Shown piece after piece: positions 29,842 to 29,978 of a stretch of DNA of 64,000 nucleotides. A model generated the notes under the pieces. It searched no databases and was not told the DNA's origin. It saw nothing but the letters and a program-made list of their open reading frames with translations. The stretch's first letter is position 1, and each line of letters begins with the position of its first letter. This DNA is from a virus (lineage: Duplodnaviria; Caudoviricetes). The stretch is from IMG/VR virus record IMGVR_UViG_2974704384_000001, positions 12,316 to 76,315 of that record, one strand, 5' to 3'. Position numbers and translations under genes: made by a program.

Positions 29842-29978
29842 TGTGGACTCCTACAGCAATTAAACTGCTTCCACTGGTAAATGGCGAGGCACAGGTTCGA
29901 CTCCTGTCATATCGGGGCCGTGAGGTACCCGTTGTAGCTCAGAGGTAGAGCGCGTATGCAAAAATCGGAGTCCAGTAA
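29842..29978 (+). ncRNA. Y-RNA-like unit 2 with circularly permuted tRNA-mimic domain (YrlA-like)
   Basis: TGGACTCC/GGAGTCCA stem; ACAGCAA; T-arm ACAGG-TTCGACT-CCTGT, then a GNRA-capped hairpin, then D-arm TAGCTC-AGAGGTA-GAGC. Confidence 0.85.

What the first reader, a model, noticed from the sequence alone, without database searches (positions are those of the whole stretch)
29881..29956. Circularly permuted tRNA mimic (T-arm before D-arm) inside unit 2
Seen: the order is T-arm (ACAGG-TTCGACT-CCTGT, 29891-29907), then a GNRA-capped hairpin replacing the acceptor stem (CGGG-GCC-GTGA-GGT-A-CCCG, 29913-29931), then a canonical TA-GCTC-AGAGGTA-GAGC D-arm (29935-29951). It has no anticodon loop and no CCA end. 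Established: this permuted topology is the hallmark of bacterial YrlA Y RNAs. Inference: it could act as a decoy for host tRNA-cleaving toxins or anticodon nucleases, or tether tRNA-modifying or decay enzymes to the Ro-like protein. tRNA finders would miss it or call it a fragment.
Basis: partly seen in the sequence, partly recalled or inferred. Interest (0 to 1): 0.75.

Follow-up and report, generated by a model that had tools for sequence, protein, structure and literature searches.

The report
Phage Y-like RNA with permuted tRNA
A mycobacteriophage encodes, just after its Ro60-shaped protein gene, a small RNA whose core is a tRNA with its parts in rotated order; it resembles bacterial YrlA Y RNAs but carries a different protein-binding handle and sits beside a different Ro-like protein family.

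Summary
A canonical T arm (29891-29907), a closed acceptor-like arm (29908-29934, with the GUGA-capped hairpin at 29913-29931), U8-A9 and a canonical D arm (29937-29951) lie in that order inside unit 2 (29844-29975).

It is more than chance. A covariance model built only from distant loci ranks this site first in the 64-kb window (37.3 bits, E about 7e-9). 22 distinct homologous modules show compensatory changes in all three stems. The tertiary 15:48 pair covaries (A:U 13 times, G:C 8 times).

The YrlA reading is largely right for the module. Full YrlA membership fails: 21.6 bits against a gathering score of 69, no GNCGAAN0-1G Ro60-binding motif, and the neighbouring protein is DUF2828/DUF7788, not TROVE. 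That protein's model nevertheless matches Ro60 structures first.

Unit 2 is one of three tandem RNAs sharing a handle (7-8 bp closing stem, ACAGCAA, trailing G). This handle accompanies DUF2828 genes in 89 of 112 loci sampled.

Most likely it is a Y-RNA-type adaptor that presents a tRNA elbow on the Ro-like ring. The decoy idea is not supported.

I found no published description. This scan has noted the same system many times on other DNA.

The parts
28312..29742 (+). Gene for the 476-aa Ro60-fold protein (DUF2828 + DUF7788 + weak vWA); the likely protein partner
   Evidence: Pfam hits. AlphaFold model with pLDDT 90.7. The top 13 PDB fold matches are all Ro60/Rsr/phage Ro60, TM 0.34-0.63. A MIDAS-like D288-x-S290-x-S292...T354...D382 is invariant in 34 homologues. 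Related GenBank records call it 'Ro-like RNA binding protein'.
29750..29772 (+). Strong hairpin just after the stop codon, with no U tract; possibly an mRNA 3' end or processing signal
   Evidence: dG -17.3 kcal/mol, z -4.54, 0 of 200 shuffles fold as well. Also present in related loci.
29783..29833 (+). Unit 1: handle RNA without a tRNA module. Stem TGGACGC/GCGTCCA, ACAGCAA at 29792-29798, trailing G at 29833
   Evidence: Sequence; unit finder.
29844..29975 (+). Unit 2: the whole Y-like RNA. 8-bp closing stem 29844-29851 with 29967-29974, ACAGCAA at 29853-29859, trailing G at 29975
   Evidence: RNAalifold keeps the stem with compensatory changes.
29871..29884 (+). Short hairpin CCA-CTGGTAAA-TGG in the position of an anticodon arm. 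The loop is 8 nt here and the 7-nt CUGUUAA in L2 phages
   Evidence: Its pairing is not resolved by covariation.
29886..29890 (+). Variable-loop-like linker ending in C48 (29890), the Levitt partner of G15 (29942)
   Evidence: 15:48 covaries across 22 modules: A:U 13, G:C 8.
29891..29907 (+). T arm: ACAGG / TTCGACT / CCTGT
   Evidence: The stem shows 4-5 pair types at three positions across relatives.
29908..29934 (+). Closed acceptor-like arm: CA...TG closing pairs, a 3x1 internal loop, a 7-bp bulged stem and a GUGA loop
   Evidence: In 22 modules the flush pairs are 90% paired, against 55% when shuffled and 32-52% when slid.
29935..29951 (+). U8-A9 junction and D arm: GCTC / AGAGGTA / GAGC, with A14, G15 and G18G19
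29987..30048 (+). Unit 3: handle RNA without a tRNA module. Stem TGGTCAC/GTGACCA, ACAGCAA at 29996-30002, trailing G at 30048
30063..30099 (+). Intrinsic-terminator-like stem-loop followed by T6; probable end of the transcript that carries the three RNAs
   Evidence: The fold gives a 12-bp interrupted stem then UUUUUU. The simple scanner did not list it.

Best explanation
Unit 2 (about 132 nt, 29844-29975) is a Y-RNA-type non-coding RNA made for the phage's own Ro60-shaped protein (DUF2828 family, gene 28312-29742).

It has two modules. The first is a handle shared with units 1 and 3: a 7-8 bp closing stem whose sequence differs between units but always pairs, followed by single-stranded ACAGCAA, with a G after the 3' strand. 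This handle is the probable binding site for the ring protein. The second is a cargo: a circularly permuted tRNA core with T arm, closed acceptor-like arm, U8-A9 and D arm. It keeps the nucleotides that form the tRNA elbow and the L shape (G18G19, T54-T55-C56, U8, A14, the G15:C48 Levitt pair).

Shown here: the anatomy, its conservation with compensatory changes, the Ro60 fold of the neighbouring protein, and the strong co-occurrence of handle RNAs with DUF2828 genes.

Inferred by analogy with Ro60-Y RNA, Rsr-YrlA and Rsr-Yrn1-PNPase:
- The three RNAs are co-transcribed with the gene and end at the terminator at 30063-30099.
- They are trimmed to the handles and bind the ring.
- The tRNA elbow of unit 2 recruits a tRNA-recognising factor to the ring. 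Candidates are tRNA-modifying enzymes, RNase P, the CCA-adding enzyme, or the polynucleotide kinase and RNA ligase annotated in the closest related phage (Loadrie). This would specialise the particle for handling tRNA-like or damaged RNAs during infection.
For: Anatomy:
- Sequence as read.
- The best Rfam match is the YrlA tRNA-like module.
- Relatives of the module score 21-47 bits on YrlA; four of them (L004, L036, L035, L007; 28-40 bits) align over the full model.

Independent model:
- R1 was built from 11 modules of distant bacteria and phages with no cluster L sequence. It ranks 29886-29952 first in the window (37.3 bits, E about 7e-9).
- It finds exactly one module at the same place in each cluster L-type locus.

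Covariation:
- 97.6% of cells paired, 11 of 13 pairs with compensatory change, score 0.72 against 0.24 shuffled and 0.18 or less when slid.
- The acceptor-like stem was not used for selection. It is 90% paired against 55% shuffled.
- The Levitt 15:48 pair covaries.

Partner protein:
- Model pLDDT 90.7; Ro60 structures are the top 13 fold matches.

Association:
- 222 handle units lie on the gene strand against 16 on the other strand, in 89 of 112 DUF2828 loci.
- Only the three units at 29783-30048 in the 64-kb window carry the full signature.

Context:
- Polynucleotide kinase, RNA ligase and a nucleotidyl transferase are annotated in the 93%-identical phage Loadrie; tRNA genes lie in the window itself.
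- LeBron's homologue gp53 is toxic on overexpression (PMC13148394).

Precedent: YrlA is modified by TruB and DusA, and M. smegmatis YrlA is cut by RNase P and receives CCA (PMC4201824).
Against: - There is no expression, end-mapping or binding data for any cluster L RNA.
- Protein-RNA binding is inferred from adjacency only.
- Folding energy is not better than shuffles.
- Model R1 also scores junctions between neighbouring real tRNA genes, so a T arm followed by a D arm is not unique to Y RNAs.
- The YrlA gathering score and the YrlA Ro60-binding motif are not met.
- An L2 phage lacking the roughly 5-kb region that holds the Ro-like gene still grows and forms lysogens (PMC12714340), so the system is dispensable in the laboratory.
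- The effector that reads the elbow is unknown.
Confidence: 0.72

Rival explanations
1. tRNA decoy. The module soaks up host tRNA-cleaving toxins or anticodon nucleases and so protects real tRNAs. It would work with or without the Ro-like protein.
For: - The element has a tRNA-like elbow and an anticodon-loop-like hairpin upstream (CUGUUAA in L2 phages).
- The window carries its own tRNA genes, and RNA-repair genes (polynucleotide kinase, RNA ligase) are annotated in the related phage Loadrie. Both fit a conflict over tRNA.
Against: - The hairpin is not held in tRNA geometry by a demonstrable anticodon stem.
- Its loop is 8 nt in this window.
- The related M. abscessus-type loci keep the three-unit array but have no tRNA module.
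- A stoichiometric decoy would need very high expression, which is untested.
Confidence: 0.1
2. Processed tRNA-like fragments. The closed acceptor arm is opened by RNase P or another nuclease, and the 3' end receives CCA, as in M. smegmatis YrlA. The active species would then be two-piece tRNA-like molecules.
For: - L2 relatives have an exactly 7-bp acceptor stem flush with the T stem. This is the feature that makes M. smegmatis YrlA an RNase P substrate (PMC4201824).
- Two distant units (L024 3376-3562, L041 3254-3409) encode a 7-bp acceptor strand followed by ACCA and a long insert.
Against: - In this window the arm is 2 bp, then an internal loop, then a bulged 7-bp stem, and it has no CCA. 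That makes it a poor RNase P substrate by the published criterion.
- Arm length varies from 5 to 11 bp or more across relatives.
Confidence: 0.1
3. Decayed remnant of two neighbouring tRNA genes (T arm of one, D arm of the next) with no function of its own.
For: - Junctions of adjacent true tRNAs at 50.7-54.2 kb score up to 31.5 bits with the module model.
- The module's arms are closest to the phage's tRNA-Lys(CUU).
Against: - Compensatory changes occur in all three stems and in the tertiary 15:48 pair across 22 distinct modules from several phyla.
- The module always lies inside a conserved handle next to a DUF2828 gene.
- The acceptor strands pair with each other, which strands of two different tRNAs would not do.
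Confidence: 0.04

Closest known systems
YrlA (Y RNA-like A; Rfam RF02553), bound by bacterial and cluster C mycobacteriophage Ro60/Rsr (Chen et al. 2014, PMC4201824; Wang et al. 2018, bioRxiv 10.1101/312249)
   Same: - Encoded next to a Ro60-shaped protein gene and on the same strand.
- Modular: a closing helix plus a tRNA-like module in the order T arm, closed acceptor stem, UA, D arm.
- Conserved elbow nucleotides and a pyrimidine at the last variable-loop position.
- Acceptor arm of variable length.
- More than one Y-like RNA per locus.
   Different: - Scores 21.6 bits against a gathering score of 69, and only over model positions 30-81.
- No GNCGAAN0-1G motif in the 5' strand. Instead there is a closing stem followed by single-stranded ACAGCAA and a 3' G.
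- The partner protein matches DUF2828/DUF7788, not TROVE, and shares 11-16% identity with Ro60 structures.
- No demonstrable long anticodon-like stem joins the module to the handle.
Undescribed 'ACAGCAA-handle' RNAs next to DUF2828 genes. No Rfam family exists; this scan has noted them on many other genomes.
   Same: Unit 2 carries the full signature. So do units 1 and 3, and 222 units in 89 of 112 sampled DUF2828 loci from actinobacterial phages, Clostridia, Synergistaceae, Neisseriaceae, Saccharibacteria, Chloroflexota and others.
   Different: - About three quarters of family members carry no tRNA piece.
- Others carry only a T arm, or a D-then-T arrangement. Unit 2 belongs to the T-then-D (permuted) subclass, 20 of 228 units.
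- The actinobacterial handle begins UGUGGAC and ends GUCCAGU. The Firmicute handle begins AAAG(A/G)C and ends G(U/C)CUUGU.
Class I RNAs of dictyostelid amoebae (Rfam RF01414; Kjellin et al. 2021, PMC7919456)
   Same: - Size about 55-60 nt.
- A covarying terminal stem joins the 5' and 3' ends.
- The motif ...UACAGCAA lies directly after the 5' strand.
- Conserved nucleotides flank the stem, and the middle is variable.
- Units 2 and 3 give weak RF01414 hits (17.6 and 16.2 bits).
   Different: - All hits are far below the gathering score of 41.5.
- 15 further loci gave no hit with E of 10 or less.
- Class I RNAs carry no tRNA module.
- The only proven direct binder is an RRM protein.
- I could not test whether dictyostelids encode a DUF2828 protein.
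Two-piece (circularly permuted) tmRNA and other permuted tRNA genes
   Same: The order of tRNA parts is rotated, and the T arm precedes the acceptor strands.
   Different: There is no tag reading frame, and no CCA in this window. The acceptor is closed by a loop rather than processed. Only distant relatives give weak tmRNA_permuted hits (15.2 bits).

Membership tests
YrlA (RF02553) | Reaches the Rfam gathering score (69 bits) over the whole model | tested here: not met
   21.6 bits, E 0.047, model positions 30-81 only. No hit at the gathering threshold.
YrlA (RF02553) | tRNA-like module in the order T arm, closed acceptor stem, UA, D arm | tested here: met
   Sequence; alignment to the model; independent model hit of 37.3 bits; covariation.
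YrlA (RF02553) | Nucleotides for tRNA tertiary folding: G18G19, T54-T55-C56, U8/A14, pyrimidine 48 with purine 15 | tested here: met
   All are present in the window. 15:48 covaries A:U 13 times and G:C 8 times. The 3-D fold itself is not testable here.
YrlA (RF02553) | Ro60-binding helix with GNCGAAN0-1G in its 5' strand | tested here: not met
   The pattern is absent from unit 2 and from the whole 29743-30118 spacer.
YrlA (RF02553) | Encoded within about 4 kb of a TROVE-domain Ro60 orthologue and on the same strand | tested here: inconclusive
   The strand is the same and the RNA starts about 100 nt after the stop codon. The protein matches DUF2828/DUF7788 and not TROVE, and a profile search of the PDB finds no Ro60. 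Its predicted fold does match Ro60 first.
YrlA (RF02553) | Binds Ro60/Rsr; substrate of TruB and DusA | not testable with these tools
   Needs immunoprecipitation and modification mapping.
DUF2828-associated ACAGCAA-handle RNAs (undescribed) | 7-9 bp covarying closing stem, ACAGCAA 0-3 nt after the 5' strand, G after the 3' strand | tested here: met
   8-bp stem 29844-29851 with 29967-29974, ACAGCAA at 29853-29859, G at 29975. Position frequencies from 222 units are.
DUF2828-associated ACAGCAA-handle RNAs (undescribed) | Lies beside a DUF2828 gene on the same strand | tested here: met
   (222 units on the gene strand against 16 on the opposite strand).
tRNA (RF00005) | Cloverleaf in the standard order, with an open acceptor stem and an anticodon arm | tested here: not met
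   No ARAGORN or Rfam tRNA call at this site, nor in Wilder, where GenBank annotates tRNA-Asn.
Dictyostelium Class I RNA (RF01414) | Reaches the gathering score of 41.5 bits | tested here: not met
   17.6 and 16.2 bits in the window, 13.7 bits in L025, and no hit with E of 10 or less in 15 further loci.

The most novel reading that the evidence does not exclude
The ACAGCAA-handle RNAs, unit 2 among them, and the DUF2828 ring protein form a second, ancient Ro/Y-RNA-type particle. It would span phages, bacteria and giant viruses, and the orphan Class I RNAs of Dictyostelium would be its eukaryotic members. One concrete lead: DDB_G0281243, a protein of unknown function pulled down with Class I RNA DdR-21 (bioRxiv 10.1101/2020.04.05.026054), could be the Ro-like partner.
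Probability: 0.1. Interest if true: 0.9.

Novelty: new variant of a known kind. Interest (0 to 1): 0.6.

Why it matters
Y RNAs are thought to work as adaptors that tether effectors to Ro60 and gate it. The effector that reads the tRNA-like module of YrlA is still unknown.

This locus shows the same permuted tRNA module grafted onto a different handle, beside a Ro60-shaped protein that shares only 11-16% identity with Ro60 structures. The host, M. smegmatis, and its phages are easy to manipulate genetically.

That argues the tRNA elbow is a portable, selected cargo of Ro-type particles. It also gives a tractable system for asking what the elbow recruits: three RNAs, one protein, natural variants with and without the module, and a natural deletion phage.

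On the practical side, the Wilder record annotates the 5' half of the element as tRNA-Asn (the hit table lists the same feature for Gardann), while most cluster L records show no feature in the spacer.

Tried and rejected
- Rfam at the gathering threshold found nothing at the site.
- Folding energies against shuffles were not significant and were not used as evidence.
- Sequence-profile search of the PDB with the protein family found no Ro60. Only the fold comparison did.
- Band-7 identity of the upstream gene could not be confirmed. Wilder's record calls it band-7-like, but Pfam gave no hit for 26371-27363.
- An anticodon-like stem joining the module to the handle was examined by eye in two alternatives: a local 5-bp hairpin, or a long-range 3-4 bp GCG/CGU helix. 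Both fit several sequences, and RNAalifold supports neither. This is left open.
- The promoter scan found no sigma-70-like site in 27300-30300, and the simple terminator scan missed the 30063-30099 terminator.
- Burroughs and Aravind 2016, Sim et al. 2020 and Avesson et al. 2011 are not held in the paper library. The supplement of Chen 2014 that lists its 22 phages is not held either. I therefore cannot exclude that cluster L phages or DUF2828 were mentioned there.
- The Dictyostelium link: RF01414 scores stay weak. A search from a giant-virus homologue returned only metagenomic viral proteins among the 120 listed, so I could not learn whether dictyostelids have a DUF2828 protein.
- Origin from a particular phage tRNA: tRNA-Lys(CUU) is closest, but only weakly.

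Full report
**What the window is**

The 421 bases around the finding match 69 GenBank records. All are Mycobacterium phages of M. smegmatis; the records I opened belong to genus Faithunavirus, cluster L in the papers cited below. The closest are Loadrie, Wigglewiggle and Vetrix at 93% identity. In those records the gene that ends at window 29742 is called 'Ro-like RNA binding protein'. In most records the spacer behind it carries no annotated feature, as in Loadrie.

**Checking the observation**

- T arm ACAGG/TTCGACT/CCTGT at 29891-29907.
- A GUGA-capped, once-bulged 7-bp hairpin at 29913-29931.
- TA plus D arm GCTC/AGAGGTA/GAGC at 29935-29951.

I add two points. First, C29908-G29934 and A29909-T29933 close the middle arm flush with the T stem on one side and with U8 on the other. 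The acceptor-like arm is therefore 29908-29934. Second, a short hairpin upstream (29871-29884) occupies the place of an anticodon arm. In L2-type relatives its loop is the anticodon-like heptamer CUGUUAA. This explains why the Wilder record annotates the 5' half of the element as tRNA-Asn, and why the hit table lists the same feature for Gardann. ARAGORN finds no tRNA there in either the window or Wilder.

**Is it more than chance?**

Thermodynamics alone says no: z is -1.27 for the unit and -0.97 for the module. Comparison says yes.

- I fetched 32 viral and 80 genomic loci that encode relatives of the neighbouring protein.
- I parsed every element with a T arm followed by a D arm inside a closing stem. 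This gave 22 distinct modules from actinobacterial phages and prophages, Acidimicrobiales, Saccharibacteria, Chloroflexota and Clostridia.
- The acceptor-like stem was not used to select them. It is located only by the end of the T arm and by U8. It is 90% paired over the six flush positions, against 55% when partners are shuffled and 32-52% when they are slid. Each position shows 4-5 standard pair types.
- The tertiary Levitt pair covaries: A15:U48 in 13 modules and G15:C48 in 8, including the window.
- A covariance model (R1) built from 11 modules, none from cluster L or its close relatives, ranks window 29886-29952 first among 64 kb on both strands (37.3 bits, E about 7e-9 with the tool's rough calibration).
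- R1 finds exactly one module at the homologous place in each cluster L-type locus.
- On the 32 matches aligned to R1, 97.6% of cells pair and 11 of 13 pairs show compensatory change. The covariation score is 0.72, against 0.24 for shuffles and 0.18 or less for slid partners. That alignment is fitted to the model, which is why I give more weight to the anchored count.
- R1's other hits in the window are junctions between neighbouring true tRNA genes at 50.7-54.2 kb. This fits the published idea that YrlA arose from tRNA dimers (10.1101/312249). It also warns that a T arm followed by a D arm is not diagnostic by itself.

**The surroundings**

The spacer 29743-30118 contains, in order:
- A strong hairpin just after the stop codon (29750-29772, z -4.5).
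- Three tandem units.
- A terminator-like stem with a T6 run (30063-30099).

Each unit has a 7-8 bp closing stem of different sequence: TGGACGC, TGGACTCC and TGGTCAC. Each stem is followed by (U)A(A)CAGCAA, and each has a G after the 3' strand. Only unit 2 carries the tRNA module.

The same handle recurs far beyond cluster L. With a strict finder (exact 7-9 nt complement next to NVCAGCRA), 222 units lie on the gene strand and 16 on the opposite strand of 112 loci, and 89 loci have at least one unit. The units lie downstream of the gene in actinobacterial phages and mostly within 500 nt upstream in Clostridia, Synergistaceae and Neisseriaceae. Of 228 units in the slightly larger set:
- About three quarters carry no tRNA piece.
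- 29 carry a T arm only.
- 20 have the permuted T-then-D order.
- A few have the D-then-T order.

M. abscessus-type relatives keep three units but have no tRNA module. No Rfam family matches the handle.

**The protein**

Pfam gives DUF2828, DUF7788 and a weak vWA match, but not TROVE. A family profile finds no Ro60 in the PDB by sequence. A model built on 34 homologues is confident (pLDDT 90.7, pTM 0.90). Its 13 best PDB matches are all Ro60 proteins: human and Xenopus Ro60, D. radiodurans Rsr and Thermus phage phiLo Ro60. They match over 480-570 alignment columns, with TM 0.34-0.63 and 11-16% identity. Isolated vWA domains follow. The MIDAS-type DxSxS...T...D residues are invariant. 'Ro-like' is therefore justified by fold, not by sequence family.

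**Comparison with YrlA**

Chen et al. 2014 (PMC4201824) defined YrlA as Ro60-adjacent RNAs with a closing helix that bears GNCGAAN0-1G and a tRNA-like module of T arm, closed acceptor stem and D arm. They searched only genomes annotated with a TROVE protein and found YrlA in 254 bacteria and 22 phages; their example is the mycobacteriophage ET08. Wang et al. (10.1101/312249) showed the L shape and listed the conserved tertiary nucleotides.

- The window's module meets the order and the tertiary nucleotides.
- The Rfam model aligns only positions 30-81, at 21.6 bits against a gathering score of 69.
- Relatives reach 21-47 bits; four of them (28-40 bits) align over the full model.
- The GNCGAAN0-1G motif is absent.

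I therefore do not file the element as a YrlA member. I file it as a YrlA-like variant: the same cargo on a different handle, beside a different Ro-type protein family.

**Likely mechanism**

Shown: the architecture, selection on it, the Ro60 fold of the neighbour, and the co-occurrence of handle RNAs with DUF2828 genes.

Inferred from the Ro60/Y RNA paradigm:
- The ring binds the handle.
- The module presents a tRNA elbow that recruits a tRNA-recognising factor or gates the ring.

The closest related phage, Loadrie, is annotated with polynucleotide kinase, RNA ligase and a nucleotidyl transferase, and the window itself holds eleven tRNA genes. LeBron's homologue of the protein, its RNA ligase and its kinase are each toxic when overexpressed (PMC13148394). 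A natural L2 phage without the region is viable (PMC12714340). A role in tRNA or RNA repair, or in quality control during infection, is the best guess. A pure decoy role, processing into two-piece tRNA-like RNAs, and a functionless tRNA-dimer relic are less likely, for the reasons given under the rivals.

**Novelty and earlier notes**

My paper searches found no description of RNAs beside DUF2828 or cluster L Ro-like genes. Three key papers are not held.

After reaching the reading above, I consulted the scan's earlier notes. The same DUF2828 plus ACAGCAA-handle system, including permuted tRNA cargo, has been noted on more than 100 other genomes. The three-unit array of this genome has been noted by first readers. 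These are unchecked AI notes, and I did not use them as evidence.

Several of those notes also remark on the resemblance to Dictyostelium Class I RNAs. I had seen this independently from weak RF01414 hits and from Kjellin et al. 2021. Class I RNAs have a covarying terminal stem, CCUUACAGCAA directly after its 5' strand, conserved AAG and CUGU ends, and a length of about 60 nt. The scores stay far below threshold, and 15 further loci gave no listed hit. I set it at about 0.1.

One lead did not appear in the earlier notes. The pull-down with Class I RNA DdR-21 recovered a protein of unknown function, DDB_G0281243. It should be tested for the DUF2828 and DUF7788 domains.

**Verdict**

- The element is a new variant of a known kind.

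Noticed in passing
L001 (Mycobacterium phage Wilder KX580962) 2646-2716; also listed for Gardann: The Wilder record annotates a 'tRNA-Asn' over the handle 5' strand, the anticodon-like hairpin and the T arm of unit 2, and the hit table lists the same feature for Gardann. ARAGORN finds no tRNA there. This is probably a mis-annotation of the Y-like RNA.
   Followed up: yes
L024 3376-3562 and L041 3254-3409: Two distant handle units have a 7-bp acceptor strand followed by ACCA and then a 40-60 nt structured insert before the returning strand. This resembles a pre-cut, CCA-bearing permuted tRNA. L024 gives a weak tmRNA_permuted hit of 15.2 bits.
   Followed up: partly
window 50741-54199: The module model R1 scores junctions between neighbouring true tRNA genes (T arm of one plus D arm of the next) at up to 31.5 bits. 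This fits the published tRNA-dimer origin model for YrlA.
   Followed up: partly
L008 3160-3219, L009 2983-3046, L018 3118-3178 and others: Several simple units without T or D arms contain a 4-5 bp hairpin whose 7-nt loop has the form CU-NNN-AA, for example UUUCA-CUGUUAA-UGAAA. These look like anticodon stem-loop mimics with differing 'anticodons'.
   Followed up: no
L009-L015, L019, L023, L026 (prophage-like contigs, protein 59-63% identical): The three-unit array is kept, but the middle unit is a plain unit of about 55 nt with no tRNA module. These are natural 'module-less' variants that could serve as comparators.
   Followed up: partly
window 29845-29906 and 29988-30048; PMC7919456; bioRxiv 10.1101/2020.04.05.026054: Units 2 and 3 give weak hits to the Dictyostelium Class I RNA model, because both designs have a terminal stem followed by UACAGCAA. 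The pull-down with Class I RNA DdR-21 included DDB_G0281243, a protein of unknown function, whose domains I could not check.
   Followed up: partly
window 29750-29772: A very stable hairpin (dG -17.3 kcal/mol, z -4.5) lies 8 nt after the stop codon of the Ro-like gene and has no U tract. It is conserved in close relatives. It may mark an mRNA 3' end or a processing site ahead of the RNA array.
   Followed up: partly
window 26371-27363 (+): This is the homologue of the gene that Wilder's record calls 'band-7-like membrane protein'. It gives no Pfam hit at E of 0.01 or less, so the Band-7 assignment is unconfirmed. The point is relevant because Band-7 genes have been linked in the literature to tRNA-like RNAs.
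   Followed up: partly
window 23788-23802: An isolated T-arm-like match to R1 (12.9 bits, E 0.053) lies in an ORF-poor stretch. Other first-reader notes describe this stretch as a non-canonical tRNA-like element.
   Followed up: no
L035 3303-3401: A bacterial small SRP RNA (68.2 bits) lies about 300 nt downstream of the handle RNA in an Acidimicrobiales MAG. It is probably an ordinary neighbour.
   Followed up: no
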